A DNA stretch of 64,000 nucleotides. Origin: Paraspadella gotoi. Its lineage: Eukaryota; Animalia; Chaetognatha. Numbering within the stretch: the first letter of the stretch is position 1; the number at the start of each line of letters is the position of its first letter. Made by a program: the position numbers and the translations under genes. The stretch is from the NCBI GenBank assembly GCA_051294375.1, contig CM119266.1:4230931-4294930 (forward strand). The letters are read 5' to 3'. Below, one piece after another: positions 31,696 through 63,113 of the stretch. The notes beneath the pieces are model-generated. The model had not been told where the DNA came from. It did not search any database and saw only the letters and a program-made list of their open reading frames with translations.

Positions 31696-31913
31696 CTTTT
31701 TATTTTTTGTGCCGGCCCCCCTTCGTTTTATGTATTCCATAGTTTTATGTTTACTTGAATAGAAACCAAATTCAATATAATTAAAATATGATCGTAAACC
31801 AGTCACAGTTGTTTTTTAATTACTGAAAATAGTTTAGGAATTACCTAATAAGATTGGAAGTGCCCAAAATACGTATTTAAAATTAAATCAATTAAAAAGT
31901 TTAACATATACTT

Positions 31914-34900
31914 TTATTCAACAGAAAACCAGTTAAAAATAAGGATAAAAGATGTAAACATTAAGCAGAAATTTTTTTCTTGGAGTTTTCCATCAGAAGA
32001 TGAAACTGAGTACGGAGTAGCTTCATTGCAAGTGGTAGTATCAGATGTTTCAATGGGGTTTGAAAAAGATATTCTTTGGGATATTGATTTGGGTAACTTG
32101 GTATAAGTGACTGGAGTTTTAAATGAAGTATTGCTAGTTGTTTCTGAAGTAGTGGACGTGGGTAACTGGATATCGTCATAGAATTTACTGTAGTTGTATT
32201 TGGAAAATTCTTATTCATATGTTTATATAGAATAAATGCTATTTGTGTTGAATAAGAAACATGGGAAGAAGGTTAATTCATAGTGGTAGTTTCATCCTTA
32301 TCAGTTTCCGTTGGGGATACTGATGTGATTAACTTGGTAGAGGTAACTGGAGTTTTAAATGGAGTCTTGCCAGTCGCTTGCGAAGTAGTGGATGTGGGTA
32401 TTGTCATAAAATTGACTGTACTTGTAAGTGAAGACTTACTGGTACTTTTTTTGTGTGTTGAAGATTTAACTTTGGTTGAAGTCACTTTTGGAGTGGTCAT
32501 TTTTGTTGAAGTTGAAGTTGTTGAAGAGGGTAATATTGTTGGTAATGCAGTCGAAGTGACTGAAGTTGTAAGGGGAGACTTGCTAGTTGTTTTGTTATTT
32601 TGTTGTTTTGTTTTTGAAGTAGTGGATGTATTGACTGAAATTGTAAGGGGAGACTTTCTAGGTGTTTTGTTGTGTTGTTGTTTTGTTTTTGAAGTAGTGG
32701 ATGTTGTGTGTGTTAAAGATTTAACTTCGGTTGAAGTAAATTTTGGAGTGGTCGTTTTTGTAACACTTGTTGAAGAGGGTAATGTTGTTGGTAATGCAGT
32801 CGAAGTGACTGAAGTTGTAAGGGGAGACTTGCTAGTTGTTTTTGAAGTAGTGGATGTTGCTCTATGAGTGGACTCAATTGTACTTGTCATTGAAGATGTT
32901 TTTGTTTTAGATGTTGAAGATGGTAAGGTGGTAATCGTAAATGGAGAGTGGCTAGTTGTTAAAGTAGCAGTTGTAGATACATTTGTTGAGGAAGAAAAGG
33001 GAGTAGTTTTTGTGGTAACATTAGCACTATATGGGGAAGTATTTGTAATATTAATTGTAGTTGTGGAAGCTTGATTAGTGGTTGAAGGTGCAGATACACT
33101 TGATGAAACAGGAGATGGAGTAGTTTTTGTAGTAATACTTGCAGTATTTGGTAATGTAGTTGTTATAACATTTGTAGTTGTGAAAGAGTGATTAGTGGTA
33201 GGTTTAGATACACTTGTTGAAGCAGAAGATGAAGTAGATTTCGTGGTAACATTAGCAGTATATAGTGCAGTAGTTGTATTATTATTTGTAGTTGTGGAAG
33301 CTGGATTCGTGGTAAGTTTAGATACACTTGATGAAGCAGAAGATGAAGTAGATTTCGCGGTAACATTAGTAGTATATGGTACTGTCGTTATTAGATTATT
33401 TGTAGTTGTAGAAGCTGTATTCGTGGTAAGTGTAGATAAATTTAATGAAGCAGAATATGAAGAAGATTTTGCAGTAACATTAGTAGCATAAGGTTCTGTA
33501 GTTGTTAGATTATTTGTAGTTGTGGAAGCTGTATTCGTGGTAAGTTTAGATACACTTGTTGAGGCAGAAGATGAAGTAGATTTCGTGGTAACATTAGTAG
33601 TATATGGTGCTGTAGTTGTTAGATTATTTGTAGTTGTGGAAGCTGTGTTCGTGGTAAGTGTAGATACATTTGATGACGCAGAAGATGAAGTAGATTTCAC
33701 GGTAACATTAGTAGTATATGGTGCTGTAGTTGTATTATTATTTGTAGTTGTAGAAGCTGTATTCGTGGTAAGTTTAGATGCATTTGATGACGCAGAAGAT
33801 GAAGTAGATTTCACGGTAACATTAGTAGTATATGGTGCTGTAGTTGTTAGATTATTTGTAGTTGTGGAAGCTGTATTCGTAGTAAGTTTAGATACATTTG
33901 ATGAAGCAGAAGATAAAGAAAATTTCGTGGTAACATTAGTATTATATGGTTCTGTCGTTGTTAGATTATTTGTAGTTGTGGAAGCTGTATTTGTGGNNNN
34001 NNNNNNNNNNNNNNNNNNNNNTAAGTTTAGATACATTTGATGAAGCAGAAGATGAAGTAGATTTCGCGGTAACATTAGTAGAATATGGTGCTGTAGTTGT
34101 TAGATTATTTGGAGTTGTGGAAGCTGTATTTGTGGTAAGTTTAGATACATTTGATGAAGCAGAAGATGAAGTAGATTTCACGGTAACATTAGTAGTATAA
34201 GGGTGTAGTGTGTAGATTATTTGTAGTTGTGGAAGCTGTATTCGTGTAAGTTTAGATACATTTGATGAAGCAGAAGATGAAGTAAATTTTGCAGTAACAT
34301 TAGTAGTATATGGTGCTGTAGTTGTTAGATATTTGTAGTTGTGGAAGCTGTATTTGTGGTAAGTTTAGATACATTTGATGAAGCAGAAGATGAAGTAGAT
34401 TTCAGCGTAACATTAGTAGAATATGGTGCTGTAGTTGTTAGATTATTGGAGTTGTGGAAGCTGTATTCGTGGTAAGTTTAGATACATTTGATGAAGCAGA
34501 AGATGAAAGTAGATTTCACGGTAACATTAGTAGTATAAGGTGCTGTAGTTGTTAGATTATTTGTAGTTGTGGAAGCTGTATTCGTAGTAAGTTTAGATAC
34601 ATTTGATGAAGCAGAAAGATGAAGAAAATTTCGTGGTAACATTAGTAGTATATGGTTCTGTAGTTGTTAGATTAATTGTAGTTGTGGAAGCTGTATTGTG
34701 GTAAGTTTAGATACATTTGATGAAGCAGAAGATGAAGAAAATTTTGCAGTAACATTAGTAGTATATGGTGCTGTAGTTGTTAGATTTATTTGTAGTTGTT
34801 GAAGCTGTATTCGTGGTAAGTTTAGATACATTTGATGAAGCAGAAGATGAAGAAAATTTCGCGGTAACATTAGTAGTATATGGTGCTGTAGTTGTTAGAT

Positions 34901-35618
34901 TATTTGTAGTTGTGGAAGCTGTATTCGTGGTAAGTTTAGATACATTTGATGAAGCAGAAAAGATGAAGATTTTGGCGGTAACATTAGTAGTATATGGTGC
35001 TGTAGTTGTTAGATTATTTGTAGTTGTTGAAGCTGTATTTGTGGTAAGTTTAGATACATTTGATGAAGCAGAAGATGAAGAAATTTCGCGGTAACATTAG
35101 TAGTATATGGTGCTGTAGTTGTTAGATTATTTGTAGTTGTGGAAGCTGTATTCGTGGTAAGTTTTAGATACATTTGATGAAGCAGAAGATAAAGTAGATT
35201 TTCGCAGTAACATTAGTAGTATATGGTGCTGTAGTTGTTAGATTATTTGTAGTTGTTGAAGCTGTATTTGTGGTAAGTTTAGATACATTTGATGAAGCAG
35301 AAGAATGAAGAAATTTCGCGGTAACATTTAGTAGTATATGGTGCTGTAGTTGTTAGATTATTTGTAGTTGTGGAAGCTGTATTCGTGGAAGTTTAGGGGT
35401 GGTGGTTGAGGTGGTAGTTGTGGTTGTTGTAGTAGTAGTAGTAGTATATGGTGCTGTAGTTGTTAGATTATTTGTAGTTTTGGAAGATGGATTAGTGGTA
35501 GGTTTAGGGGTTGTGGTTGAGGTGGTAGTTGTGGTTGTTGTAGTAGTAGTTGTGGTTTGTTTTCTTAAGGCACTCTTGAAGTTTTTGTTTTGAAACTTTA
35601 ACTTCAGGTCAGAAACGC
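31914..35618 (-). CDS. Mucin-like Thr/Ser-rich terminal exon, copy 1 (probably a redundant assembly of 41593-45268)
   Basis: 114-bp/38-aa repeat TTNTASTTTNNLTTTAPYTTNVTVKSTSSSASSNVSKL; acceptor TTTAG|GC at 35618; hydrophobic C-terminus; scattered 1-bp frameshifts and a 25-N gap. Confidence 0.7.
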
Positions 35619-36597
35619 CTAAAAAAATAAAATAAAACATATAGGTAAGTATTTTTAAAACTTAGGATGATAAAAAACCATTAAGTAGGCCTATATTCAA
35701 GACAATATAATTATTTTGATATCAAGACCAAAATATGGTAAAATAAATACGTAATAATCTTTAAAAATATTTCTTCATTTGTCAAGATTCAGCAGACATA
35801 ATTCAAAATTTTAGTTAAGTCCATCAGTTGTCTTTGTTGATTTTGTAAGGAAATTCATAAATTATTAAAACTGGACTAAAAATTGGTTTGTAAAGTGTGT
35901 GATTAGGTTTAAGAATAAATTCAAGTAAAAAAAATTAGTGGGAATGCAAAAAATCGACATAATTTTTATTGTAATTTAAATCATATAGTGATATGGTGAA
36001 AGCAGCTATTACATCATGGTTATCCAACTCATTCCGGGTACCTGCGTTATTTGATTTAACTCAGTTTAATTTTGTTTTCAAAACTTCATAGTATTTATCC
36101 AAAACAAAAAAAGATTGTTTCTTTGCTTCAACTAAAAAAGTTATTATATTCATACACAGTGTCATAAAATAGAAAATTTTACAGGATGTACCAAAATTAG
36201 GTACCTATAAGAAGGTCCTGTTTTGTTAAATAGTGTTTGTGGTTTTTTCAAAAAAAGTTTTTTAAAAAACTTTCCATTTCAATCTTTCACTTTTGCAAGC
36301 GCCAAGGAGAAAGCCAATTACATTATTTGGCGAAATTAATTTGAGAACGGCAATCAGAATTTTGGAAAGTCGGGAATTATACAATTAGTGACCATAACTA
36401 GTCTAATTACTACTTACTAATTAGATATAGAAATTAGACAAGAATGAAACAAGGATAAGATGATAAAAATGCGGCACAATTTGATTTGATTTGACAAAAG
36501 GATTGTCTGAAAAGGTTTGCTTTAGTATGCTTAGCTCTTTTGTTATGATAAAATTAATAAAATCATAAAATATTATTATAGATTTTTATTCAATTTT

Positions 36598-36665
36598 TCA
36601 ATCCTCAAATGTACAGTTTTTGAAAAATGTCTTGTAGTTGAACTTTAGTTTTAGGGTCTCTACAT
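36598..36665 (-). CDS. Duplicate copy of the short terminal exon (DVETLKLKF...TFED*)
   Basis: Matches 46246-46313. Confidence 0.5.
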
Positions 36666-38498
36666 CTGTAAAGGAAAATAAACTAGTCATTAAAATTTTT
36701 TAGTTGGGTTAATGATTTTAAACTGAGTTAATACAATCTTAAAGCAAAAAATTTAAAAACTTTTTTATCTGTTCTAATTTATAGGTTTCGCATGAGGCAA
36801 TCGGTGTCTTTTAGACACGAAAATCTGAAACTTCAATAAATTACCATATTTCTTGATCTCATTGGTTAGGTACGAAAGCTTTCTTCATTTAAAAAAACGG
36901 TAGTCTCAAGTTATATCTCCTTCTTATCACTTAGAACTTCCCATGTAAATTTCTAATGAGTTTAAAAATACGGTTAAGACATGATTCTTCCAATGCTTGT
37001 CAATCTAATCTCATTAACTGCTTAATTTTAGAAAAAAGTATGCTTGAATTTGTTATGGTAGGCAGATGATTTTTAAAGATCGAATTCCTTATAAGAATCC
37101 TCATGTCCCTTTTAACTGAACAAAAGATTTTTAGGTAAGACGCCACATATATTTGATACAATTTTTTTTTCATTTCATACACGCTTTTTCCTGATAAATT
37201 TTTCTACCTCTTTTCTTCTCTTACTTTATATTTTCCTCTTCCTTATCCTCCCTACTTCTCACGCTGTCACTTACCATTTTTTTGGCACCTACTTTTTCGG
37301 TCACTTAATGCAACTTTCCTCACCTTTTTTCTCATTTTCATTCTTCCCTTTTTTTTCCCCTCTTTTTCTTTCCATTTTCCCCTCTTTTCTTAACCTAACA
37401 ATTGTTTCACTATTTTTTTCCCATTTTGCCCTTCGTTTTTTGCCTTTCACCCTCTTCTTTTTGCAATTCTCTCCCCTTCTCTTTTATAGTTTTTTCCGCT
37501 TTCCGTCTTCACTCTCACTACAATTTACATTGAGCCAAATCAAAAAGAAAATTCTTTTAATAACCGCATTATAGAAGAAAATGAATTGTAGCAGCATGAT
37601 TTTTCTTCAATTTTGGTTGACGTAAAGCAAATTTAGTAAAGTCGCAATTTTTGCGGAAAATTTTTCCGCAAATCTGTCGATTTTGAGAAAAACAAAGTCC
37701 TGATGCTTTCCAGTGGATTAAAAGGATGCGGTTTTTTTTTGGATAATCAAGGTCAGTATTACCATCATCTTTTAAAAACTAATAAATGAGTTGAAAATAT
37801 TCTCTTTATCAAAAATAAATGCAAGTCACAAAAAAGTCACAAATTAAAGACGTCTTTAAAATTATTTGTGGCTAAACCCAGAAAAGTTTTTTTGATAAAT
37901 TTTATAGGTGTTAAAAGCTTTATTCAATAGGCTAAATTTTCTGTTAATTTAACCTAATTTGATTTATTTTTGTGTTTAACAAATTATGATAAAGACTGAA
38001 AACTCCAACTTTTTTGACTTGTTTAATTTAAAATTAATTTTATAGGCAAACTATAATGATTAAGCTAATACAAATTTACCCGAAAAAAAGGAAAAAGGAG
38101 AGGTAAAGAAGATAATGAAAGAACGGATTTTCGCAAAGAAAAAAATTTTCACTCAACTTTCCTTGGCATTAAATCAGAAGTCGTAAGTAAAAAATGGACA
38201 AAAATGGAAGCAATAAATTGGTTTTGTGGAGCTAAAAATTGCAAATGGTAACTATTTTTATCATTAGAAATTGGTTGAGATGTTTTAACAACAATGCCTC
38301 TCGTTCGGTAGTAAGTTTAGATACATTTGATGAAGCAGAAGATGAAGTAAATTTTGCAGTAACATTAGTAGTATATGGTTCTGTAGTTGTTAGATTATTT
38401 GTAGTTGTGGAAGCTGNNNNNNNNNNNNNNNNNNNNNNNNNAAGTGCCCAAATACTATTAAAAATTAAATCAATTAAAAGTTTAACATATACTTTTAT

Positions 38499-41400
38499 TC
38501 AACAGAAAAACCAGTTAAAAATAAGGATAAAAGATGTAAACATTAAGCAGAAATTTTTTTCTTGGAGTTTTCCATCAGAAGATGAAACTGAGTACGGAGT
38601 AGCTTCATTGCAAGTGGTAGTATCAGATGTTTCAATGGGGTTTGAAAAAGATATTCTTTGGGATATGATTTGGGTAACTTGGTATAAGTGACTGGAGTTT
38701 TAAATGAAGTATTGCTAGTTGTTTCTGAAGTAGTGGACGTGGGTAACTGGATATCGTCATAGAATTTACTGTAGTTGTATTTGGAAAATTCTTATTCATA
38801 TTTATATAGAATAAATGCTATTTTGTGTTGAATAAGAAACATGGGAAGAAGGTTAATTCAAGTGGTAGTTTCATCCTTATCAGTTTCCGTTGGGATACTG
38901 ATGTGATTAACTTGGTAGAGGTAACTGGAGTTTTAAATGGAGTCTTGCCAGTCGCTTGCGAAGTAGTGGATTGGGTATTGTCATAAAATTGACTGTACTT
39001 GAAGTGAAGACTTACTGGTACTTTTTTTGTGTGTTGAAGATTTAACTTTGGTTGAAGTCACTTTTGGAGTGGTCATTTTTGTTGAAGTTGAAGTTGTTGA
39101 AGAGGGTAATATTGTTGGTAATGCAGTCGAAGTGACTGAAGTTGTAAGGGGAGACTTGCTAGTTGTTTTGTTATTTTGTTGTTTTGTTTTTGAAGTAGTG
39201 GATGTATTGACTGAAATTGTAAGGGGAGACTTTCTAGGTGTTTTGTTGTGTTGTTGTTTTGTTTTTTGAAGTAGTGGATGTTGTGTGTGTTAAAGATTTA
39301 ACTTCGGTTGAAGTAAAATTTTGGAGTGGTCGTTTTGTAACACTTGTTGAAGAGGGTAATGTTGTTGGTAATGCAGTCGAAGTGACTGAAGTTGTAAGGG
39401 GAGACTTGCTAGTTGTTTTTTGAAGTAGTGGATGTTGCTCTATGAGTGGACTCAATTGTACTTGTCATTGAAGATGTTTTTGTTTTTAGATGTTGAAGAT
39501 GGTAAGGTGGTAATCGTAAATGGAGAGTGGCTAGTTGTTAAAGTAGCAGTTGTAGATACATTTGTTGAGGAAGAAAAGGGAGTAGTTTTTGTGGTAACAT
39601 TAGCACTATATGGGGAAGTATTTGTAATATTAATTGTAGTTGTGGAAGCTTGATTAGTGGTTGAAGGTGCAGATACACTTGATGAAACAGGAGATGGAGT
39701 AGTTTTTGTAGTAATACTTGCAGTATTTGGTAATGTAGTTGTTATAACATTTGTAGTTGTGAAAGAGTGATTAGTGGTAGGTTTAGATACACTTGTTGAA
39801 GCAGAAGATGAAGTAGATTTCGTGTAACATTAGCAGTATATAGTGCAGTAGTTGTATTATTATTGTGTAGTTGTGGAAGCTGGATTCGTGGTAAGTTTAG
39901 ATACACTTGATGAAGCAGAAGATGAAGTAGATTTCGCGGTAACATTAGTAGTATATGGTACTGTCGTTATTAGATTATTTGTAGTTGTAGAAGCTGTATT
40001 CGTGGTAAGTGTAGATAAATTTAATGAAGCAGAATATGAAGAAGATTTTGCAGTAAGCATTAGTAGCATAAGGTTCTGTAGTTGTTAGATTATTTGTAGT
40101 TGTGGAAGCTGTATTCGTGGTAAGTTTAGATACACTTGTTGAGGCAGAAAGATGAAGTAGATTTCGTGGTAACATTTAGTAGTATATGGTGCTGTAGTTG
40201 TTAGATTATTTGTAGTTGTGGAAGCTGTGTTCGTGGTAAGTGTAGATACATTTGATGACGCAGAAGATGAAGTAGATTTCACGGTAACATTAGTAGTATA
40301 TGGTGCTGTAGTTGTATTATTATTTGTAGTTGTAGAAGCTGTATTCGTGGTAAGTTTAGATGCATTTGATGACGCAGAAGATGAAGTAGATTTCACGGTA
40401 ACATTAGTAGTATATGGTGCTGTAGTTGTTAGATTATTTGTAGTTGTGGAAGCTGTATTCGTAGTAAGTTTAGATACATTTGATGAAGCAGAAGATAAAG
40501 AAAATTTCGTGGTAACATTAGTATTATATGGTTCTGTCGTTGTTAGATTATTTGTAGTTGTGGAAGCTGTATTTGTGGTAAGTTTAGATACATTTGATGA
40601 AGCAGAAGATGAAGTAGATTTCGCGGTAACATTAGTAGAATATGGTGCTGTAGTTGTTTAGATTATTTGGAGTTGTGGAAGCTGTATTTGTGGTAAGTTT
40701 AGATACATTTGATGAAGCAGAAGATGAAGTAGATTTCACGGTAACATTAGTAGTATAAGGTGCTGTAGTTGTTAGATTATTTGTAGTTGTGGAAGCTGTA
40801 TTCGTAGTAAGTTTAGATACATTTGATGAAGCAGAAGATGAAGTAAATTTTGCAGTAACATTAGTAGTATATGGTTCTGTAGTTGTTAGATTATTTTGTA
40901 GTTGTGGAAGCTGTATTTGTGGTAAGTTTAGATACATTTGATGAAGCAGAAGATGAAGTAGATTTCGCGTAACATTAGTAGAATATGGTGCTGTAGTTGT
41001 TAGATTATTGGAGTTGTGGAAGCTGTATTCGTGGTAAGTTTAGATACATTTGATGAAGCAGAAGATGAAGTAGATTTCACGGTAACATTAGTAGTATAAG
41101 GTGCTGTAGTTGTTAGAATATTTGTAGTTGTGGAAGCTGTATTCGTAGTAAGTTTAGATACATTTGATGAAGCAGAAGATGAAGAAAATTTCGTGGTAAC
41201 ATTAGTAGTATATGGTTCTGTAGTTTTGTTAGATTAATTGTAGTTGTGGAAGCTGTATTGTGGTAAGTTTAGATACATTTGATGAAGCAGAAGATGAAGA
41301 AAATTTTGCAGTAACATTAGTAGTATATGGTGCTGTAGTTGTTAGATTATTTGTAGTTGTTGAAGCTGTATTCGTGGTAAGTTTAAGGATTAGATACATT

Positions 41401-41511
41401 TGATGAAGCAGAAGATGAAGAAAATTTCGTGGTAACATTAGTAGTATATGGTTCTGTAGTTGTTAGATTAATTGTAGTTGTGGAAGCTGTATTCGTGGTA
41501 AGTTTAGATAC
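38499..41511 (-). repeat. Mucin exon copy 2 (partial, between two 25-N gaps)
   Basis: Near-identical to 31914-34800 and 41593-44400; differences are mostly homopolymer indels. Confidence 0.75.
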
Positions 41512-41592
41512 NNNNNNNNNNNNNNNNNNNNNNNNNAAGTGCCCAAATACTATTAAAAATAAATCAATTAAAAGTTTAACATATACTTTTAT

Positions 41593-44500
41593 TCAACAGA
41601 AAAACCAGTTAAAAATAAGGATAAAAGATGTAAACATTAAGCAGAAATTTTTTTCTTGGAGTTTTCCATCAGAAGATGAAACTGAGTACGGAGTAGCTTC
41701 ATTGCAAGTGGTAGTATCAGATGTTTCAATGGGGTTTGAAAAAGATATTCTTTGGGATATGATTTGGGTAACTTGGTATAAGTGACTGGAGTTTTAAATG
41801 AAGTATTGCTAGTTGTTTCTGAAGTAGTGGACGTGGGTAACTGGATATCGTCATAGAATTTACTGTAGTTGTATTTGGAAAATTCTTATTCATATTTATA
41901 TAGAATAAATGCTATTTTGTGTTGAATAAGAAACATGGGAAGAAGGTTAATTCATAGTGGTAGTTTCATCCTTATCAGTTTCCGTTGGGATACTGATGTG
42001 ATTAACTTGGTAGAGGTAACTGGAGTTTTAAATGGAGTCTTGCCAGTCGCTTGCGAAGTAGTGGATTGGGTATTGTCATAAAATTGACTGTACTTGAAGT
42101 GAAGACTTACTGGTACTTTTTTTGTGTGTTGAAGATTTAACTTTGGTTGAAGTCACTTTTGGAGTGGTCATTTTTGTTGAAGTTGAAGTTGTTGAAGAGG
42201 GTAATATTGTTGGTAATGCAGTCGAAGTGACTGAAGTTGTAAGGGGAGACTTGCTAGTTGTTTTGTTATTTTGTTGTTTTGTTTTTGAAGTAGTGGATGT
42301 ATTGACTGAAATTGTAAGGGGAGACTTTCTAGGTGTTTTGTTGTGTTGTTGTTTTGTTTTTTGAAGTAGTGGATGTTGTGTGTGTTAAAGATTTAACTTC
42401 GGTTGAAGTAAAATTTTGGAGTGGTCGTTTTGTAACACTTGTTGAAGAGGGTAATGTTGTTGGTAATGCAGTCGAAGTGACTGAAGTTGTAAGGGGAGAC
42501 TTGCTAGTTGTTTTTTGAAGTAGTGGATGTTGCTCTATGAGTGGACTCAATTGTACTTGTCATTGAAGATGTTTTTGTTTTTAGATGTTGAAGATGGTAA
42601 GGTGGTAATCGTAAATGGAGAGTGGCTAGTTGTTAAAGTAGCAGTTGTAGATACATTTGTTGAGAAGAAAAGGGAGTAGTTTTTGTGGTAACATTAGCAC
42701 TATATGGGGAAGTATTTGTAATATTAATTGTAGTTGTGGAAGCTTGATTAGTGGTTGAAGGTGCAGATACACTTGATGAAACAGGAGATGGAGTAGTTTT
42801 TGTAGTAATACTTGCAGTATTTGGTAATGTAGTTGTTATAACATTTGTAGTTGTGAAAAGAGTGATTAGTGGTAGGTTTAGATACACTTGTTGAAGCAGA
42901 AGATGAAGTAGATTTCGTGGTAACATTAGCAGTATATAGTGCAGTAGTTGTATTATTATTTGTAGTTGTGGAAGCTGGATTCGTGGTAAGTTTAGATACA
43001 CTTGATGAAGCAGAAGATGAAGTAGATTTCGCGGTAAACATTAGTAGTATATGGTACTGTCGTTATTAGATATTTGTAGTTGTAGAAGCTGTATTCGTGT
43101 AAGTGTAGATAAATTTAATGAAGCAGAATATGAAGAAGATTTTGCAGTAACATTAGTAGCATAAGGTTCTGTAGTTGTTAGATTATTTGTAGTTGTGGAA
43201 GCTGTATTCGTGGTAAGTTTAGATACACTTGTTGAGGCAGAAAGATGAAGTAGATTTCGTGGTAACATTTAGTAGTATATGGTGCTGTAGTTGTTAGATT
43301 ATTTGTAGTTGTGGAAGCTGTGTTCGTGGTAAGTGTAGATACATTTGATGACGCAGAAGATGAAGTAGATTTCACGGTAACATTAGTAGTATATGGTGCT
43401 GTAGTTGTATTATTATTTGTAGTTGTAGAAGCTGTATTCGTGGTAAGTTTAGATGCATTTGATGACGCAGAAGATGAAGTAGATTTCACCGGTAACATTA
43501 GTAGTATATGGTGCTGTAGTTGTTAGATTATTTGTAGTTGTGGAAGCTGTATTCGTAGTAAGTTTAGATACATTTGATGAAGCAGAAGATAAAGAAAAAT
43601 TTCGTGGTAACATTAGTATTATATGGTTCTGTCGTTGTTAGATTATTTGTAGTTGTGGAAGCTGTATTTGTGGTAAGTTTAGATACATTTGATGAAGCAG
43701 AAGATGAAGTAGATTTCGCGGTAACATTAGTAGAATATGGTGCGTAGTTGTTAGATTATTTGGAGTTGTGGAAGCTGTATTTGTGGTAAGTTTAGATACA
43801 TTTGATGAAGCAGAAGATGAAGTAGATTTCACGGTAACATTAGTAGTATAAGGTGCTGTAGTTGTTAGATTATTTGTAGTTGTGGAAGCTGTATTCGTAG
43901 TAAGTTTAGATACATTTGATGAAGCAGAAGATGAAGTAAATTTTGCAGTAACATTAGTAGTATATGGTTCTGTAGTTGTTAGATTATTTTGTAGTTGTGG
44001 AAGCTGTATTTGTGGTAAGTTTAGATACATTTGATGAAGCAGAAGATGAAGTAGATTTCGCGTAACATTAGTAGAATATGGTGCTGTAGTTGTTAGATTA
44101 TTTGGAGTTGTGGAAGCTGTATTCGTGGTAAGTTTAGATACATTTGATGAAGCAGAAGATGAAGTAGATTTCACGGTAACATTAGTAGTATAAGGTGCTG
44201 TAGTTGTTAGAATATTTGTAGTTGTGGAAGCTGTATTCGTAGTAAGTTTAGATACATTTGATGAAGCAGAAGATGAAGAAAATTTCGTGGTAACATTAGT
44301 AGTATATGGTTCTGTAGTTTGTTAGATTAATTGTAGTTGTGGAAGCTGTATTCGTGGTAAGTTTAGATACATTTGATGAAGCAGAAGATGAAGAAAATTT
44401 TGCAGTAACATTAGTAGTATATGGTGCTGTAGTTGTTAGATTATTTGTAGTTGTTGAAGCTGTATTCGTGGTAAGTTTAGATACATTTGATGAAGCAGAA

Positions 44501-45268
44501 GATGAAGAAATTTTCGCGGTAACATTAGTAGTATATGGTGCTGTAGTTGTTAGATTATTTGTAGTTGTGGAAGCTGTATTCGTGGTAAGTTTAGATACAT
44601 TTGATGAAGCAGAAGATAAAGTAGATTTTGCGGTAACATTAGTAGTATATGGTGCTGTAGTTGTTAGATTATTTGTAGTTGTTGAAGCTGTATTTGTGGT
44701 AAGTTTAGATACATTTGATGAAGCAGAAGATGAAGAAATTTCGCGGTAACATTAGTAGTATATGGTGCTGTAGTTGTTAGATTATTTGTAGTTGTGGAAG
44801 CTGTATTCGTGGTAAGTTTAGATACATTTGATGAAGCAGAAGATAAAGTAGATTTTGCGGTAACATTAGTAGTATATGGTGCTGTAGTTGTTAGATTATT
44901 TGTAGTTGTTGAAGCTGTATTTGTGGTAAGTTTAGATACATTTGATGAAGCAGAAGATGAAGAAAATTTCGCGGTAACATTAGTAGTATATGGTGCTGTA
45001 GTTGTTAGATTATTTGTAGTTGTGGAAGCTGTATTCGTGGGAAGTTTAGGGGTGGTGGTTGAGGTGGTAGTTGTGGTTGTTGTAGTAGTAGTAGTAGTAT
45101 ATGGTGCTGTAGTTGTTAGATTATTTGTAGTTTTGGAAGATGGATTAGTGGTAGGTTTAGGGGTTGTGGTTGAGGTGGTAGTTGTGGTTGTTGTAGTAGT
45201 AGTTGTGGTTGTTTTCTTAAGGCACTCTTGAAGTTTTGTTTGAAACTTTAACTTCAGGTCAGAAACGC
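41593..45268 (-). CDS. Long terminal exon: mucin-like 38-aa repeats plus a putative GPI-anchor signal
   Basis: Begins (G)VSDLKLKFQ, then Thr-rich repeats with three N-x-S/T sequons per unit; ends SSSDGKLQEKNFCLMFTSFILIFNWFFC*; frameshifts look like read errors. Confidence 0.72.
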
Positions 45269-48200
45269 CTAAAAAATAAAATAAAACATATAGGTAAGTA
45301 TTTTTAAAACTTAGGATGATAAAAAAACCATTAAGTAGGCCTATATTCAAGACAATATAATTATTTTGATATCAAGACCAAAATATGGTAAAATAAATAC
45401 GTAATAATCTTTAAAATATTTCTTCATTTGTCAAGATTCAGCAGACATAATTCAAAATTTTAGTTAAGTCCATCAGTTGTCTTTGTTGATTTTGTAAGGA
45501 AATTCATATAATTATTAAAACTGGACTAAAAATTGGTTTGTAAAGTGTGTGATTAGGTTTAAGAATAAATTCAAGTAAAAAAAATTAGTGGGAATGCAAA
45601 AAATCGACATAATTTTTATTGTAATTTAAATCATATAGTGATATGGTGAAAGCAGCTATTACATCATGGTTATCCAACTCATTCCGGGTACCTGCGTTAT
45701 TTGATTTAACTCAGTTTAATTTTGTTTTCAAAACTTCATAGTATTTATCCAAAACAAAAAAAAGATTGTTCTTTGCTTCAACTAAAAAAGTTATTATATT
45801 CATACACAGTGTCATAAAATAGAAAATTTTACAGGATGTACCAAAATTAGGTACCTATAAGAAGGTCCTGTTTTGTTAAATAGTTTTGTGGTTTTTCAAA
45901 AAAAGTTTTTTAAAAAAACTTTCCATTTCAATCTTTCACTTTTGCAAGCGCCAAGGAGAAAGCCAATTACATTATTTGGCGAAATTAATTTGAGAACGGC
46001 AATCAGAATTTTGGAAAGTCGGGAATTATACAATTAGTGACCATAACTAGTCTAATTACTACTTACTAATTAGATATAGAAATTAGACAAGAATGAAACA
46101 AGGATAAGATGATAAAAATGCGGCACAATTTGATTTGATTTGACAAAAGGATTGTCTGAAAAGGTTTTGCTTTAGTATGCTTAGCTCTTTTGTTATGATA
46201 AAATTAATAAAATCATAAAATATTATTAGATTTTTATTCAATTTTTCAATCCTCAAATGTACAGTTTTTGAAAAATGTCTTGTAGTTGAACTTTAGTTTT
46301 AGGGTCTCTACATCTGTAAAGGAAAATAAACTAGTCATTAAAATTTTTAGTTGGTTAATGATTTTAAACTGAGTTAATACAATCTTAAAGCAAAAAATTT
46401 AAAACTTTTTTATCTGTTCTATTTTATTATTTTTATAATCTTTAGCAAAAAAATTATTTCGTTAAAAAATAAAACAAATGAAAAAAGGAAACCTAACATC
46501 TTAAACAATAGGAATATGATAACGGTCTGGGCTTCTAATCGATCATCTGCTGACATGCACCATTCATAATTTTAAAAGACAACCAAGGCTTGAAATGAAA
46601 ATATCTTACAATTGATTTATTCTCTCTTGAAATTTGAACTCTCACCTTGATAAGTTGCGACGGTCACCGGCCATCCAAAAAATTTCGATGAAGACGTTGG
46701 TAAGGAGCTTGCAATTAAGGGGTTTTGAGCTGGATGGATTTTTAAAAGCGTTAATTACGCTTCATTTATCACGTTTTTATCAATACGAATTTAATAGATA
46801 TTTTTTTATTTTCTTGTCCTCAAAAAAACCTGTGTTCCAGAAGATACTGTCAGCGGTTTTCACGAAATAAGTTCCGTTTAGTTTCGTGCTGAGCAATGAA
46901 ACAATAAATAGATAAATGATTAACAGTTAATCCTCGATGAAAAATAATTTTAATTGATCGATTAATTCAAAAATATTATTTATATATATAAAAGATATGG
47001 ATAGTTATCAAATTAACTGATTTTGACTGTTAAACATTAAAATTTAGCATTTTTCATAAATGAATAAATCATTTTTTTAATCCCGTAAACGCCAAATAAT
47101 TACACCAGTCATATCTGTACACTTAAAGAATCTGTACAGTTAAAGAATAACTTAAACTTAACCAGGGCTTAAACTTAAACTTAAACTTAACCAGGGCACG
47201 CTCGAATAGTGGGGAAATTAACCTAGGGTCACATGGAGATGTGGATATGGCGCTAAGTAGGCTGAAGATGACTATCTGCAACTTCATTAACCCCCTCTAG
47301 CAGCCATGGAACGGGTCCTGGGGTTAGAACCAGGGTTTGCCATGCCTCAAAAGCAATTTACGGTTTCCCGAAGGTACTGGGTTGAGATTGAACCCGATAC
47401 CTACTACATAGTGGTCATGAGCTTTAATGAATGAGCCACTGGGTGAAACTGGGCAATGGGGCATAGATAAATAACTCAAAATTATTACAATTTCTTACCA
47501 GAAAAAATTCCATGGCCCTGGAGTATAGCAACACACTTGTAGTTTATAACGATTCGGTAACACTTGAATTTTGTAACCATCTTGAAAAAGTAAAAAATAA
47601 ATGAATTTCTTGATTACTCAAAAAAACAACTGTTGGAACAAATATTTCTTTTACCTATTAACATTTTAATATTAATTAATATTAATATTAAATATTATAA
47701 TAAAAATTAAATAAGAATCATAAATGTAAATCAAAGTTGAAATAATAACAAGTAAAATTCTTCATGAATTTTATCTTACATTTAAAGGTTCGACCATTAT
47801 ATGATCCTTCTGCCATCAAAGAACCATGGTTTGAAGATAATCCGGCTAGAATCCGCGTTCCGCGCCAGTAAACAAACCTAAAGAGTAACCATAAATCCAA
47901 AGGTATATAAATATTGCAGGATTACTTGAATGTCTTCAATAAATCTAGTTCTAAGGCTTTTAAAGAGTATGTTCCATAATAACATATGGATATAGATATT
48001 AGTTATAAAATAAACGAGTTTAGATTAATTTAAAGGAGTGGGATGTGAAGATAGTCTTCTTGAAATAAACGGTGCGTATATAGATTTATTTTATAGATTA
48101 TCTGATCTTAAAAATTAACTGACTTATTCCGCCAAAATCCCCAAGTGAAATCATCTATATTTTGCTTTGAGAAATGTTTTTCAGCGTCGTCTGCTAAGCC

Positions 48201-51200
48201 CCTTGTCCTTGTATATATAAGCTCCCACCCATCTGCAAAAATAATTGTAATAAAAATTATTAAGAATATCTAAAATTGGTAAGAATTGACTAAATTTTAA
48301 TGAATCGTCCTGGGGCGAGTAGGGGCGTCTCCAAAATTATCTCAACCCCTACTAATGGCTTTAAAAATATATACAAATTATATACAAAATTATTTATACA
48401 TATTGTTTTTTTAAGAGTTTGGCCGAGTAAAAGAATTAGGGTATAAATCAACGAAAAAAACGAATTGACTTTGGAAACAAATATTCTCTCTTCAAACTTC
48501 AAAATTTGTCAAAATATTTTTAATTAAAATAAATAATATTCTTATGTTATATTTTTTAAACGGTTAGCAATTGGTTTAGGGGTGGTTAAGGATTAGGAGT
48601 AGTTAGGGATTAAGTGTAGTGAGGGTTAAAGGAGTTTTCAAAATAAAATTTATAATATAAAGTTTTTCTACCCTTACCAGTATTTTTTTTAACCGACCGC
48701 AAAATCCCGGTCGGCGAATGTAAAAATAAGTCAATATTTGTTCTTGTCAGTTTTTTTGTAAAACTATACAGAGGGCGTTTTCCCCACTAAATTCCTAACC
48801 TTTACATTCCATATCAACGATCCACACATTTTTCGGATCGTTGTCCATTTTAACAAAAATTGAATGAACGTGAGATTCCGCCGTTTTGTTGTTACTTTTC
48901 TCGCAATCTTTGATTCTGGGTGAATTGGGGGAGTTGTGTCTATTATCTAATTAACTTTTTTTATATAAATACATCAAAATCTAAATGTTCAATATTAATA
49001 AAATACTGATGAGACTTTAACTCACGTATCCTCCTGTTTGGTGACTTTTGGCAGCGTCTAAAACAGAACAGGGGACAAGAAAGAAGAAAAGAAAAACATA
49101 AATATTTATTATTAAATTCAGCATTACAGAGTTCTTTTTAAAAAAACAATTCAAAAAAACTGAACTATATTAGTTTATTACCTAGATAAATATCTCTGTA
49201 TAAAAAAAATCATGAGCAGCTTCGCTAATCTTTATCCTAAAAACCTAATTCCAAATACAATCTTCAAAAAACCTATTATATACACAAAAATCTAACTCCG
49301 ATCCAATCAAAATTCAGACTAATTAATTTTTTTTTTAATTTAAATCTGAATTGCTCGCCTTACAAGAAGCTGAGTTGGTCCTCATGAAGAGATTCAAACT
49401 CTCAACCACTATAGAACCTTCATCGTAAATATTATGAAAAAAATGCCGTTTCCAAAGCATTTCCCCGCGCGATGCTGAAAACCAAAAATAGTTACTAAAA
49501 TGATCTTGAAATAATCTTTCTCTCTCACTCTATCTCTCCCTCTACCGGTCGGTCGATGTAACATCGGCATGTATTGATTAGTTTCTTTTATTTTGGGATC
49601 CGCAAACCAAGGCTGGCACGCAGAAACTGTAAAAAAAAATCAAGTATTTTTATGTTATTTATGAATATCTAAAAATATATTTCACACGATGAAAAAGCAC
49701 TTCACAAGCATTAACCTTTACACTACTATTGACATCATACAAGTAGTCAAGTACTTTGATATTTAATTTAAATAAAAACAATCTTAAAAGACTCATGATC
49801 GAGCCAGACCCCACTCAAAGAAAATTAATAAAAAAATCTGAGAAATGAATGATGCGATAACAAATTATTGATGTAAAAGTAATTGAATGATGTAATAGTA
49901 ATTTATTGATGTAATAGGAATTAATTATTGATGCGATGATAACCAATTATTGATGCGATGATAATCATTCACTGATGTGATGATAATCATTCACTGATAC
50001 GATGATAGTCATTCATCGTAAATAAAACAAACGCGTATATGAGTAAGAGAGAGAGAGAGACGGAGAGAGACAGAGACAGAGTGTACGAACTTTGTTTTCA
50101 AATATAAAACATATTCTAAATCTCAGAGCCATAAAATAAATCCACGAAAAATCTCTGATGTAAATTTGGGATTTTGTATTGAGAAAAAAGCGTTGAATAA
50201 ATGGCGATAATAAATGTTTTTAGGAAAAAAAATTAATCAGAATTTTTTAAAAAACGCACGATCACGCAAGAGATCATACAGAGAGAGAAAAAAAGAATGA
50301 TAATGAGAGAGAGAGAAAGAAAGAAGCTGGACAGACGGTGCAGAGCTGGAAATCGTTTATTTGTCGCCTAATAACAGTGGTAAAATTTAGGTCAAAACAT
50401 GTAACGTTTCCACCGTGTGAAATTAGGTCATGTTAATTTTTTTATACACATAACATTTCCGTTACCATCAAAATGCGTTATTAGGTCATGTTCCTGGACA
50501 TTGTTTACTCATTGCCCCGCAATGGCCACAAAATCCAGGTCAAATAAGTTATTCTTTACTTTTTTAAAAATAAATCTATAAAAATTTATATTGAGAAAAA
50601 AGCGCATAATAAATGGCGAAAATAAAAGTTTTTAAAAGGAAAATAACCCTAATCCTAACCCCCTAACCCTAACCAAAATCTAGCCAGGACGGGCTTTGTC
50701 CCGTCTGGCTCGATAAAAATAATCAGAGAGAGAGAGAGAGAGAGAGAGAAAAATAGAGAGAAACTGGACAGCCGCTGGACCGCCGCTGCAGAGATAAAGA
50801 GAGAGAGTGATATATAATTAAAAGAGAGAGAGAAAAGCTGCATAGCCCATTTACTCGTCAAAGAATCAGCAGTACTTATGGTGACGGACGTAGCGCGAGC
50901 TCCTCCCATGATGATGAGAAGCTATATATAAAATTTCAACTCCCTGTGATATCACACTTTCAAAAGCAATGATTGCAAAAAAGCGTGACGCCAACGACGA
51001 CTACGTCACAAAAAAGCCATTTTAAATCATTATAGAGCCAGGACGGGCTTCGCCCGGTCTGGCTCAATAACAATTGTATAATTTGTATTTCAATTAAACT
51101 GACTCATTGAGAAATCAAACTTTACCTTCATGGTCGCTGCAGTTGCTGGGCCTAACGAGAAATAAATGAAAAACCTATTTCAATATTTACTATCTAATAA

Positions 51201-54200
51201 TAATAATAATAATAATAAGGATAATAATAATAATAATTTAATAATACAGTGCGTCCCAATGGTACTGTCTATTAAGAAAAGCTTACTGCTCCTATACCAG
51301 ATCGAGAAACTTTAATTCATTATAATGAATATACGCACAAGTGTCGACCATTTTATAGGATATAGGATTATATATTTTTTAATATTTATAAAATATTTTT
51401 ATAATATTGATTAAATAATGTTTTAAATATTTTCTTTAGATGCAGGACAGTAAGAAACTACCTCATATTTTTAGCTCCAGAGCTTTTTTAATACAGTAAT
51501 AATTTTTTAAAAATTATCTACTTACCTTGTTTATATTATTTTTTTAATTAATTTAATAATAATTTATTGAATAAATAGCAACCATTTTGTTCTGGCTTAA
51601 TGATTCAATCGCTTACAACTTCAAATAATAGAATTTAAATATCAAATTAATTAGTATAATTTTTTCCATTTTTGTATTTTTTTTAATATTTGTTTATTTG
51701 TTTTTATTAATGCATTTATTTTATACAAATCTAAATTTAAATAATTTATATCTATTTAAAATATTTTTTACGTCATTTTTTTAATAAATTTTATTTTAAA
51801 ATAAAAAAAATTATCTAAAAATTAAAAAAGTTAAAAATTATGACTCATTTATATTGATTGTTCTGAAAAGAAAACTTGATAAAAATAGAATTCGAAATAT
51901 AGTATCAAATAAGTAAGCAGAAAAATGGTAAGAAAATGGTAAGAACTTATCTTTGACATTGTTATCTCAGAAATAAGATTTAATAACACAGTTCCGTACA
52001 ATATGTAAAAGTTAACCGACAGTACCATTGGGACACACTGTAATTGTGTTACCATCACGGCTCTAAATTTTCTTTCTGAAATTTAGTTAATTACCCGATT
52101 TTGGTCAAAATAATTTTCAAAAAAATGCTTACCTTTGAGTGAACAAAAAATTCCATTGACTTCTGATCGTAAAAGAGTCGCGAAAATTGAGATTTTCATC
52201 TTTAGTTGGATTTAAATTGATCGGGACTTTGGGCCCTTTCAATGTGAAAATGTTATTCTTTACTCAAAAGATTATACAAAATTATAGGAAAAAAATAAAT
52301 ATGCTTGCCTATTTTGACGTTTTGTCGATCCTCTTGACAAACGGTCAACTGGAATTCTTTGTTGACTTCTTTGACAGAAAACCCAGGATATTGAATATTG
52401 TAAATTGTTGATGTCGAAGATCCTTTAGACTTTGTCAGTTGCGAAACTTGTAACGTGTTGCCTCGCCCTGACCCGATTGGGCTCATCGAGAAAAAAGCCA
52501 TCACCTGTATGAACATCAATACAATTAATAAAATTTAAACCCTTAAACCCGTAATCGATAATAAAACAAGTTTGAGCAAACATTTCCGGATATGTTCACG
52601 GCAATTAGCCGTGAGTTCAATTTGGTATCGTTCTTGATAAAATGCCAAATACCTTTAGCCCCATCATGTGCTCCTGCAAGAGATTTCCAAATCCTTGAGC
52701 ATAGGCTTCCTTCACTTTCCCTGTCGGAGCGCTCCCGGTGGAGAAACTAACTTCCGCCGGATATTGGATCGATCTGTGGAGAAAAAAAGAGCAATGGGTA
52801 AAATTCATAGAATAAAATGAAAAAAAATATGTGAGATGATTGAGATGAGTATAAATTATTTTTATTTTGTGCTTTAAGCTTTAGGCAGATTCCGCCTTTA
52901 TAATTCACTTTTCCGATCTGTCGGTCGCTCCCTTAAATCATCTGAACATCAAATTAAGAAAAATTAAGTAAAAAAAAGTAAGAAACATAATATAAAATAA
53001 TGAAAATAAAACGAATAACGAACTAAAAATATAATACTTAAGGGAGTGGTCTTTTCATTCATGAAATATCATTTTATTTTTTTGTTTTTTCCATTTTAAC
53101 TCATTTCACTCGGACGATTCCATCGAAACTTGATTCCCAGCTCAATCACACACTTTTCTTCACACACAAAATTTCATTCCAATCCATCCATCAAATCACG
53201 ACTTTTTGATGTTTTATTACTGAAAATTAGTAAAAATTTTGATGATGATGAAAATTTTTTAAGTTTTTTCCCAATTTTAACTTAACTTATCATCAGAATA
53301 TTGAAAAAAAATTATACTTTGTGCAGACAACTTTTCATAGGCTATCTGTATCTGATTTTAAAAATACAAAATTCAGAAAAAAAATATTAATAAGCGTGAC
53401 GCCGATGACAACGCTGACAACGATGTCACAAAGAAGCCTGGCCTTCGCTTTATCTCGCCAAGACCAATACCAAAAACAGTATTGACAAAATTAAAACAGT
53501 ATCAGTGTAAAAGATTAGAAAAGATCAATTGAAAGTTTTTTCAGAAATGTATGAAGTTTCATTTGGGAAGGTTCCCAAATCAAACTTCTCACCCACCCCA
53601 TTGACAAAGACTGGCCCTAGTTTGTACTTGAATTGGTGACCGCCTGGGAATTCCGGTTATCAGCAGATTCCTTCTCTATAATTCACTTTGTCGGTCCGTC
53701 GGTCCCACCCCAAAATCTAGTCGGTAAATCATTTTTATCATATCAGAAACTCGAATTATGATAAATTATGCAAAAAAAATGATGTCCGTCCGTCCGTCCA
53801 TCCTCCATTAGCATTAAACTCCAATTACTCATGATTAGATTGATGGATTGGAATGAAATTCTGTATGTGGGTAGGAAAGTGTGTGAATAAGTTTGATATA
53901 AAGTTTTGATGAAATCGTGCGAGAGGAAATGAGTTTAAATGGAAAAAACAAAAAAAATATTTCACTATTTGAACTCCAAATACTCATAAGTGGACCGGGC
54001 GATTGACTTTAAATTTTGTAAGTGGGTAGGAAAGTGTGTGATAAAGCTGGAAATCAAGCTTCGATGGATTCGTCTGAATGGAAATGAGTTTAAATGGAAA
54101 AAAAAACCTGTTTCACTAATTGATTAATAAATGATTATGCTTCTTTTTCTTTTTATATTAAATGTAAATGCAAGATGTATTAATTAATAAAATAATTAAT

Positions 54201-57200
54201 CAGTTAATTAATCAATTAATTAATAAATAATTATTTAATCGGTCAATTAATCAATCAATTAATTATTCAATCAATCAATTTATTTAGTTATCTATCAATT
54301 AATTATTCAATCAATCAATTTATTTATAAAGTATTTAATTATTTAATCAATTAATCAATCAATCAAGTCAATCTTTTTCGGCATTATTGTCGTCGTCGCC
54401 ATCATCGTCGTCGTTGCTTTTGTCGTGGTCAGTGACAAAAAGACCTAAAAACATACATTTCGGATCATATTAATTAATTTATTAAATTATTATTTTAGTT
54501 TATATAGTTTATCTTTAAATGAAGCTTAACATAGAAACATTTCAAAGGGAACTGCTAACTATAAATATATTTTATGACAAGGATTTATAGATTTCCCTTC
54601 AGGCACAAGGCTCTGAAGCAACTCTCTTAAAGAGAGATCCCTATGAAAGGGCAAGATACATACTTTAAACAAATTGAATGTACTTAATTATAAGCTTCAA
54701 TGCATCAAGCGCAAAATCTTTCTTAAGATGATTTTTTTTTTAAGTTTTCAGATGGTCAACTTATATCGAGCAAGTGGAGTGGAGCCCTGTTTATTGAAGA
54801 ATAATAAACCTGAGCTATAAAATTTTGTATCATAACTAATGCAAAATGAACTGAAGATATTTTATGAATAATTGTAACTAATATTTCACTTATGATTATG
54901 AAGTCATAGTCCCAAAACTTACTCTGCTTCTGATTACTTGCATTTTCTGTTTTCTATGCAAATAATAAAGCCAGAAAAGCCTCGTCTTCAAGTTCTCAAA
55001 CAAAAGTTTGGAATAAGTCTGATTCATTTGTTAAGTTTATCGGAGGTTTATCCAGCCAAATTGGTATCTAGATATATAGAATATTAATAGCAAAAAGAAA
55101 TTAAGTCAATAAGGGAATTAAGAATGTTTCATTGCTTTGGAAAAAAAACTCTATGCAGATAATGCCAACTTGATATCCCACGATCTGCACTACAACCATA
55201 TCACATTAAGTACACCGGTTCATATCTAATCAAAAAAGTTAAGCAATATTGTGCCTACTTTATACTTGAATGGGTGACCGGCTGACTGCCTAGAAATCCT
55301 GGGTATAGTGATTCTAAAAGAAAAATATGAGCCACGATATTGACAAAAGAATTATATATGATTCAAAAGCTACATATTTTTGTTAAATTATCTTTAAATG
55401 GAGCTTAGCNNNNNNNNNNNNNNNNNNNNNNNNNNNNNNNNNNNNNNNNNNNNNNNNNNNNNNNNNNNNNNNNNNNNNNNNNNNNNNNNNNNNNNNNNNN
55501 NNNNNNNNNGAAATTTTTTCTAAGAAAACTGCTAAATATAAATGCAATTTTTTTGTCCAATGTAAGAAATAATCAATTTGAGACAAAACTTTAACAAACC
55601 TTTTGTACAAAATGATATTTCATGACCAGGATTAATAGATTTCCCTTCAGGCACANNNNNNNNNNNNNNNNNNNNNNNNNGCACAAGGCTCTGAAGCAGC
55701 TCTCTTAAAGAGAGTTCCCTATGAAAGGGGAAGATACATACATACATACTAAGGCGTAGTAAAATTTCTAAATTTAACTTTAATTAAAATTCTAAAAGTG
55801 AGAAATGAACAACATTATACTAATGAACATTTATGTAATAAAAAAATTTATAATAAATTTTTCAATTTACGCAGTAGGCCATATTTATACTAGTACTAAA
55901 CCAATAAATGTTAAATTTCAAAACTTTTTTTTTAAAAATATTTTTACAGATTTGGATTCGTCATAAAAAGTTGATAGAAAGAAATATAACTCTTTTTGAA
56001 AAATTCCTTCATTAAGTGGGTCAAAAATTAGAAAAAGCTATATTTTAAGCTGAAATTAACTTTTTATATATTAAATATAGTTTAATTTTTAACTCACTTA
56101 ATGAAAGAATTTTTAAAAATGATTTATATTTTCTTTTATCACTTTTGACGAGGAATTCAAATCTGCAATCAAAATTAAGAAAAGCCTATTTTGAAATTTT
56201 TCGATTTTATAAGGATAGATATATAGCCTATTGCGAAAATTAAAAAACATAAAATTTTTTTTTTACAAATTAATATTCACTGATGGTATGTTGTTCATAA
56301 TTAACTTTTAGAATTTCATATGTAACTTTCACTACGCCTTAATACATACATACATACATACTCTTCGAGGCGTGGGTTTGAATCCCACCGCTGCCACCAC
56401 AATTAAGTAAATAGACAGATATTTCTAGCGAAACAAAGTGGATTTATTTCTTCAGAATTTAGACATTAATACAAGACGGTGTCAATTCTCGAGGCAGAGT
56501 GAATCAATACAAGTTGGTTCCTATTTATACAATGCAATCGGATCGGAGGTAAGGGTAAAGTTTACAGCCGGAAAGAAGCCCATCTGCCCATAGGCCGATG
56601 CCATTTGTCTTTCGTCCAATGAGAATGTTCCATTCTACTTCCGGCGGAGTTTGCTCGCGTCGCCGATCCGATTTCGATTCTGGAGTCTTGATTCCGCTGC
56701 GATGCTTTTGTAGAAGACGAAAATAGTATTAATAAAAATAAGGAGAGAGTGAAGAATCGTGATGTTGTAAGAGAAGTAGAAAAGAAGTAAGACGACCTAT
56801 CTCCTGAACCACTTTTATCAACGCCCGGACCAACTTGACCTTACGGTCTCGTGCTTTTCCCGGTCAATCTAAGGTCATTGCCAAAGCTAGGGCAAAGTGA
56901 CCATGGAGAAAGACGGGTACGAAGAAAGAGAAGAGAAGAAGGGTTTAGAGAGAGATTCGCCTCACTTTAAACAAATTTAAACTACTCAATTATAAGCTTC
57001 AATGTTTGCAGAGCAAATTTTCTTAGGCCATGTGGCGGTATATTCACACCGCCTTACATCCACCGTCGTTCAGCCAATATCATTGGCTCAGAGAGGGAAT
57101 ACACCATCCCAGGCATTGTGTTCCTTCCACAGTCCTAACGACTTCCCTCTGCGTTGGCAAAGCAAGGCCATCCTTGGGTAACCGCGCCTGTGACTGGAGA

Positions 57201-58213
57201 CGTCGCAGAGGGTAAAAAGCCCAAAAGCCATCAGTGAGATTCCCCATCCCATATGGGCATCACAGGCAACCTGGGTGTTGCCGTAAGTAGTGAGCCCTAC
57301 TATCGAACATGCAACCTTCTAAGGGTACGCTACGAAAACCACCTATGCCCTGTCAACTTCGGGACGCTATAACAAACCCCTATGCCCCTGGGGTACCCTA
57401 TGACAAACGCCTATGCCCACCAACTTTGCTCTCTCTCTCTCTCTCCACTATGGTAACAGTCTAATCAGACACCTCTCAGGCCTGGAGAACCTGAGTGATA
57501 TCTTGGCCCGGGGATCTTGTGGCGGTATATTAACACCGCCTTACGTACACCATCGTTCAGCCGATACCATTGGCTAAGAGAGGGAACACACCATCCCAAG
57601 AGTTGTGTTACATTCAGTCCTAACAACTTCCTCTGTGTTGGCAAAGCGAGACCACCCGAGGTAACCGCGCCAGTAACTGAAGGCGCCAACAGTGAGATGC
57701 CCCATCCCAATGGCCAATCAAAGGCAACCCGGCTGTTGCCATAGCCATACCTTTTTGAAAAAGTATTCAATTTGTCAACTTTTATCAAGCTAGTAGAGTT
57801 TTGAGCCATTTTTACTGCAGAATAAGTTACACAAGTACCACAGCTATTGAAAAATGAAATTTTTTTTCATTAATTACTAAAAATCATTATTTATTAAGGT
57901 ATCTTTAGGATTTCTTTTGATATGATCTGTTATGATCAGAAATTTATTATGACTTATAACCTGATTAGCTACTTACTGCTAAATCATCGAGCATTGTTCG
58001 CTCAAACTTATCTTTATGCTTTTGACTAGATTAAACTAGTTTTGCACAATTTATCCTCCATAGTAGCCATAGTCTGAGAGTAAATATACCTCGACATGAC
58101 TGTGATCTTTCCGTCGTGACACTTGACTTGACGCTCGCGGTCTTCGTCAACGGGATCCGCGTCTTTGACGACCCAATGGACATGATCGTCGCCGGCCGGA
58201 CATTTGAATCTGG

Positions 58214-58251
<38 letters not shown>

Positions 58252-58409: not shown

Positions 58410-58759
58410 CTGTAATTGTGAGCATTATCATTATCATCCTTAGAATCGACATCACCGTCATCATAATCATCATCTTATGTAAAGAAATATTTTTCTATAT
58501 TAAAAAAGTAAAAAAGGAAAAAAGTAAGATCTGTTGAGCAATCTATATATGAAAAAATTTTAAGGTCTTTAGTTAACAATTAGTTACTAAAATATATTTT
58601 GCCTAAGAAAATTTCTTTCCCTACTTGGCCCCTTCATCCAGTTTTATTTATTTTAATTAAGCCTTTTAGCCTTTTAGCTATACAACATATATGGTAATGT
58701 TGATACTGAAGAGACAGTAATTATTGTTATTTGTTAGTGACAGAACTGTTAAATATAAG

Positions 58760-63078: not shown

Positions 63079-63113
<35 letters not shown>

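What the first reader, a model, noticed from the sequence alone, without database searches (positions are those of the whole stretch)
41593..46729. Two homologous alternative last exons may switch a multi-FReD protein between a short soluble form and a GPI-tethered mucin-stalked form
Seen: after the phase-1 donor at 46646 there are two phase-1 acceptors whose exons begin with the same motif. One is DVETLKLKFNYKTFFKNC..* (46313-46246, with its own AATAAA). The other is GVSDLKLKFQ..K...C followed by ~1200 aa of T/S repeats and the hydrophobic tail SSSDG-KLQEKN-FCLMFTSFILIFNWFFC* (45268-41593). No other convincing exon lies between them. Known: FReDs are lectin-like recognition domains, and small residues plus a spacer plus a hydrophobic tail is the GPI signal pattern. 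Inferred: exon duplication produced a secreted versus cell-surface switch, analogous to alternative 3' ends of immunoglobulin heavy chains.
Basis: partly seen in the sequence, partly recalled or inferred. Interest (0 to 1): 0.8.

Follow-up and report, generated by a model that had tools for sequence, protein, structure and literature searches.

The report
Fibrinogen-like gene, two unanchored endings

Summary
Half right. One spliced RNA contig joins the donor at 46646 to the mucin exon at 45268, and the 14-exon chain reads open into either last exon. It encodes two divergent FReDs (35 bits; shuffles at most 9.2). The short exon is a real duplicate: 6 of 7 shared residues differ at silent sites, it has the best acceptor of 58 in the intron, and AATAAA follows its stop. 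Its junction was not seen.

The GPI claim fails. The mucin exon is assembled three times with indel errors. The cleaner copy matches three DNA runs and the RNA run with no gap or joint. It has an in-frame TAA at 41949, after about 1,107 residues. The hydrophobic tail lies behind that stop, in another frame, and ends WFSVE*, not WFFC*. The mucin form is therefore unanchored; the GPI-like tail is likely a relic in the 3' UTR. A minor internal splice (GTAAGT at 42110) could restore it and is not excluded. The scan had not noted this layout elsewhere.

The parts
58090..58209 (-). Likely exon with the start of FReD1 (assembly copy at 62956-63075)
   Evidence: Open frame and phase fit; outside the stretch laid, so not RNA-checked
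49359..52773 (-). Six exons, rest of FReD1: 52773-52653, 52504-52309 (GC donor), 52235-52133, 51151-51126, 49626-49546, 49474-49359 (GC donor)
   Evidence: Spliced contig, joints and record coordinates; FReD profile match
46830..49057 (-).
   Evidence: CT..AC joints; open frame; profile match
46646..46729 (-). Last shared exon, phase-1 donor
46246..46313 (-). Short alternative last exon, 22 codons then TGA; junction not observed
   Evidence: Homology and silent-site pattern; acceptor score 12.5, top of intron
46233..46238 (-). AATAAA after the short exon's stop
41947..45268 (-). Mucin exon, coding part: motif, about 22 repeats of 114 nt, T/S-rich tail, TAA at 41949-41947; about 1,107 residues
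   Evidence: Junction; repeats; stop
41589..41946 (-). 3' UTR holding an out-of-frame 97-codon stretch that ends in a GPI-like signal whose TAA overlaps AATAAA
   Evidence: read on the validated copy 32207-31914
41819..42110 (-). Candidate internal intron (GTAAGT ... CTTCAG) that would remove stop and frameshift; not observed
   Evidence: no joint
31858..36782 (-). Second assembly copy of short exon plus mucin exon; its tail is the accurate one
38317..41511 (-). Third, partial assembly copy of the mucin exon

Best explanation
The gene encodes two divergent fibrinogen-related domains and splices its last shared exon onto a mucin exon whose frame ends at a hydrophilic stop, and it likely also splices onto a duplicated short last exon, giving a compact form and a mucin-tailed form that are both predicted to be unanchored. 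Shown: exon chain, mucin junction, stop, out-of-frame hydrophobic tail. Inferred: the last exon was duplicated; each copy likely supplies the last strand of FReD2 and a following cysteine; the distal copy grew by 114-nt repeats into an O- and N-glycosylated tail; choice is by competition between the proximal acceptor with its poly(A) signal and the distal acceptor; the GPI-like segment is the remnant of a former anchored end, cut off by a stop and a frameshift in a ~190-nt duplicated unit. Secretion is assumed from the family; no signal peptide was found in the window.
For:: one 1,722-nt contig with 11 listed canonical joints incl. 45267/46645; absent from the two DNA-like runs laid; chain open without any correction; 35 bits, two domains, against a profile of 14 Pfam-confirmed FReDs; best of 1,000 shuffles 9.2 (760 scored); 7 shared residues in the first 12, 6 with silent changes, only 17 of 36 bases alike; short acceptor 12.5, above all 13 RNA-supported acceptors of the gene (leave-one-out, -5.4 to 10.3); tail copy matches 4 of 4 runs with 0 gaps and 0 joints, one substitution in one short contig inside a repeat; other frames are closed upstream of the hydrophobic segment; real end fails my GPI rule, out-of-frame tail passes; 11 of 888 other open stop-ended frames pass.
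Against: The short junction is not among the 15 joints listed (34 not shown), and the RNA contig skips the short exon. Only one RNA data set is available (X7 and X8 look like one set filed twice). The silent-site pattern shows past selection, not present use. The profile did not align the last strand for either exon; a 12-column score puts it only 4th in the protein (3.7-3.8, next to 4.0 for FReD1's own). The frame through the repeat array was not checked with reads (inferred from copy comparison). A 97-codon open tail whose stop overlaps AATAAA looks little decayed for a relic.
Confidence: 0.52

Rival explanations
1. The short exon is a recently silenced duplicate; the gene makes only the unanchored mucin-tailed form.
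For: The only RNA contig skips it.
Against: Intact frame, strongest acceptor in the intron, AATAAA beside the stop, silent-site conservation. Contigs are graph-simplified and drop rare variants (tool text; Logan methods passage), and only one data set was seen.
Confidence: 0.25
2. A minor splice inside the mucin exon (donor GTAAGT at 42110 to an acceptor at 41818 or about 41785) removes both the stop and the frameshift and restores the GPI tail, so the gene would have three ends: short, mucin-free-floating and mucin-anchored.
For: Both lesions lie inside that interval; the best donor of the tail (5.5) is in phase with acceptors scoring 2.4 and 5.6, all within the range of this gene's real sites; the tail frame is open for 97 codons and passes the GPI rule.
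Against: A 701-nt RNA contig crosses the interval without a joint. GTAAGT also arises from Ser-Lys-Ser codons, and 50 GT/AG pairs restore the frame on paper, so an in-phase pair is easy to find.
Confidence: 0.18
3. One reading: the mucin exon reads straight into the GPI signal and all stops are assembly errors.
Against: The last stop and the frame change are in 4 of 4 runs, from four sample codes, DNA and RNA.
Confidence: 0.02

Closest known systems
Human fibrinogen gamma/gamma-prime and alpha/alpha-E (PMC10370639, passages seen)
   Same: A fibrinogen-family gene changes its C-terminus by alternative 3' splicing or polyadenylation.
   Different: There the change is a short peptide or a whole added globular domain; here two duplicated exons each likely finish the same FReD and one adds about 1,100 mucin residues.
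Acetylcholinesterase T/H/R isoforms (PMC5388418, passages seen)
   Different: Here the GPI-like segment is out of frame in the observed transcript, and the two ends are homologous duplicates.
Drosophila PGRP-LC 3' variable region (PMC6191721, abstract and outline seen)
   Same: A recognition-type protein with alternative 3' cassettes.
   Different: There competing RNA pairings select the cassettes; here only a marginal 14-nt complement was found (23 of 500 shuffles) and the cassettes differ by a mucin tail.
Invertebrate FReD proteins / intelectin-like proteins (PF00147; PMC12013895, passages seen)
   Same: FReD core; described there as secreted glycoproteins implicated in defence.
   Different: Two very divergent FReDs in tandem with an optional mucin tail; no relative found.

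Membership tests
Fibrinogen-related domain (PF00147) | Profile match along the domain | tested here: met
   Own profile of 14 Pfam-confirmed FReDs: 35 bits, domains 18.8 and 15.3, shuffles at most 9.2. Pfam itself hit 0 of 13 single exons; FIBCD1 structure at E 1.4 with one exon.
Fibrinogen-related domain (PF00147) | C-terminal strand present (supplied by the last exon) | tested here: inconclusive
   Not aligned by the profile; 12-column score 3.7 and 3.8, 4th in each isoform, absent from intron read-through.
Fibrinogen-related domain (PF00147) | Fold, disulfides and calcium/ligand site | not testable with these tools
   The spliced protein could not be folded; profile positions 136-171 are unaligned in both domains, so lectin activity is unproven.
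Secreted FReD protein | Signal peptide | tested here: inconclusive
   No convincing candidate in 58210-64000; about 276 nt of the contig's 5' part are unmapped.
GPI-anchored protein | Omega site, spacer and hydrophobic tail in frame at the C-terminus | tested here: not met
   Real end is hydrophilic; GPI-like segment is behind a stop in another frame.
Mucin-type domain | T/S-rich tandem repeats | tested here: met
   22 copies of 114 nt; 310 of 574 positions T or S and 27 N-sequons in the validated copy's last frame.
Alternative last exons | Two same-phase acceptors, each followed by a stop and a poly(A) signal | tested here: met
Alternative last exons | Both junctions seen in RNA | tested here: inconclusive
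   1 of 2 seen, in one contig-level data set.

The most novel reading that the evidence does not exclude
One FReD gene has three ends: a duplicated last exon gives a compact form, the mucin exon gives a free mucin-tailed form, and an intron hidden inside the mucin exon, when removed, restores a GPI anchor, so splicing alone moves one recognition head between body fluid, mucus and the cell surface.
Probability: 0.15. Interest if true: 0.7.

Novelty: new variant of a known kind. Interest (0 to 1): 0.36.

Why it matters
If both ends are used, it is a clear case of last-exon duplication in which each copy must finish the same folded domain and one has grown a 1,100-residue mucin tail, a cheap way to place a recognition protein in fluid or in mucus. 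The cut-off GPI-like signal may record a recent change from a tethered to a released mucin. Alternative 3' ends of this general kind are known, so without the hidden third splice the finding is of moderate interest.

Tried and rejected
No whole genome held. No RNA holder on record was listed; X7/X8 were recognised as RNA by their spliced contig. No contig of X7/X8 covers the short exon: the bin depth 0.5 equals what one intronic contig gives; absence of cover is no evidence. Three paralogous mucin exons: rejected; in the non-repeat parts copies differ by 0-1 substitutions and 4-19 internal indels per 1.2-1.4 kb, and by 5 substitutions and 35 indels plus a 25-N insert in the repeat array, with equal repeat counts. 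Stop read-through alone: gives another frame that fails the GPI rule. Homolog searches found nothing; one search gave one spurious bacterial Ig-repeat protein. ESM Atlas gave no result. FReD1-FReD2 pairwise alignment was barely above shuffles (53-54 vs max 50-50.5). Docking-site search: best duplex -18.0, equal to shuffles; a 14-nt complement flanking the short exon is reached by 23 of 500 shuffles, a lead only. My early idea that the stop arose from TTA is not supported by the alignment. Literature searches listed no FReD-mucin alternative-end case (listings only; subscription journals and supplements not seen).

Full report
Setting. The window is animal DNA; no whole genome is held. The block 41537-46427 recurs at 31858-36782 (97.9%) and partly at 38317-41511. 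In non-repeat parts the copies differ almost only by 1-base indels, with 0-1 substitutions per pair; in the repeat array the two full copies have equal unit counts and the 25-N gap is a pure insert. I read these as noisy long-read copies of one locus (inference).

Gene model. Laying four runs on 45110-53000 gave, in X7 and X8, one 1,722-nt contig with 11 listed canonical joints (15 joints listed, 34 not shown). X7 and X8 carry the same contig at the same depth and count as one data set. X5 and X6 cover introns and show none of these joints. Fourteen exons join into one open frame without correction and continue in phase 1 into either last exon; record coordinates fit. The first of the 14 (58209-58090) lies outside the stretch laid. 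About 276 nt further 5' are unmapped, too few for a third FReD unless the contig is truncated, and no convincing signal peptide was found in the window.

FReD test. Pfam hit none of 13 single exons. I built a profile from 14 full-length FReDs, kept from 118 motif-matched loci by length and a Cys motif, all 14 Pfam Fibrinogen_C. The spliced protein scores 35 bits with two domains; the best of 1,000 shuffles scores 9.2. The profile does not align the last strand. A 12-column score ranks the start of either last exon 4th, beside FReD1's own candidate strand: consistent, weak. Lectin function is not tested.

The short exon. It is more than chance: score 29 against the mucin exon start, next best 10 among 58 AG sites of the intron and 24 among 7,230 in the window. 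Seven of the first 12 residues are shared, six through silently changed codons, while only 17 of 36 bases agree. That is the mark of long selection on both proteins. Its acceptor scores 12.5, above the gene's 13 RNA-supported acceptors, and AATAAA starts at 46238. The RNA contig skips it. Logan contigs are graph-simplified (methods passage, 10.1101/2024.07.30.605881), so a minor short branch can vanish; its use is open.

The tail. Laid on the second copy (31700-33000), X1, X4, X6 and the RNA run X7 show no gap, no joint and one substitution in one short repeat contig; a 701-nt RNA contig spans 31865-32565. The hydrophobic segment is in a different frame, closed upstream, and ends WFSVE*. The mucin form thus ends in a hydrophilic sequence after about 1,107 residues (frame through the repeats inferred). 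The UTR is a ~190-nt duplicate of the preceding coding unit with a net frameshift. Its last 97 codons pass a simple GPI rule of my own, as do 11 of 888 other open stop-ended frames, and its stop overlaps AATAAA. I read it as a relic anchor signal (inference).

What remains open. The best donor in the tail (GTAAGT, 42110) is in phase with acceptors that would remove both lesions, with scores inside the range of real sites; but 50 GT/AG pairs do so on paper and the contig crosses without a joint. A 14-nt complement flanks the short exon and could loop it out, but 23 of 500 shuffles reach it.

Comparison. Fibrinogen gamma-prime and alpha-E (PMC10370639, passages), AChE T/H/R (PMC5388418, passages) and PGRP-LC (PMC6191721, abstract and outline) are known alternative 3' ends; placozoan FReD proteins are described as secreted defence glycoproteins (PMC12013895, passages). 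Searches listed no FReD with an optional mucin tail; listings only, supplements not read. No relative was found. Unchecked notes of this scan report several arrays of alternative last exons in the same genome; they raised my prior slightly and are not evidence.

Verdict. Observation partly confirmed; alternative last exons likely; GPI switch not supported for the observed transcript. New variant of a known kind, interest 0.36.

Noticed in passing
window 56367-59130 and 61227-64000: Second assembly duplicate, 99% alike, 1 substitution and 23 indels; holds the likely first FReD1 exon twice.
   Followed up: partly
window 46364-46377 and 45706-45719: Perfect 14-nt complement flanking the short exon; 23 of 500 shuffles reach it.
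   Followed up: partly
window 52309 and 49359 (minus strand): Two of the 13 donors of this gene are GC, not GT.
   Followed up: no
window 6828-8426 (+): C2H2 zinc-finger ORF; Snail/Scratch-like by recall, not tested.
   Followed up: no
window 26198-29556 (+): Two protein-kinase domain pieces around a long proline-rich frame, converging on the 3' end of the FReD gene; may be one two-kinase gene.
   Followed up: no
window 21790-22427: Short tandem coding-like repeat with open frames on both strands.
   Followed up: no
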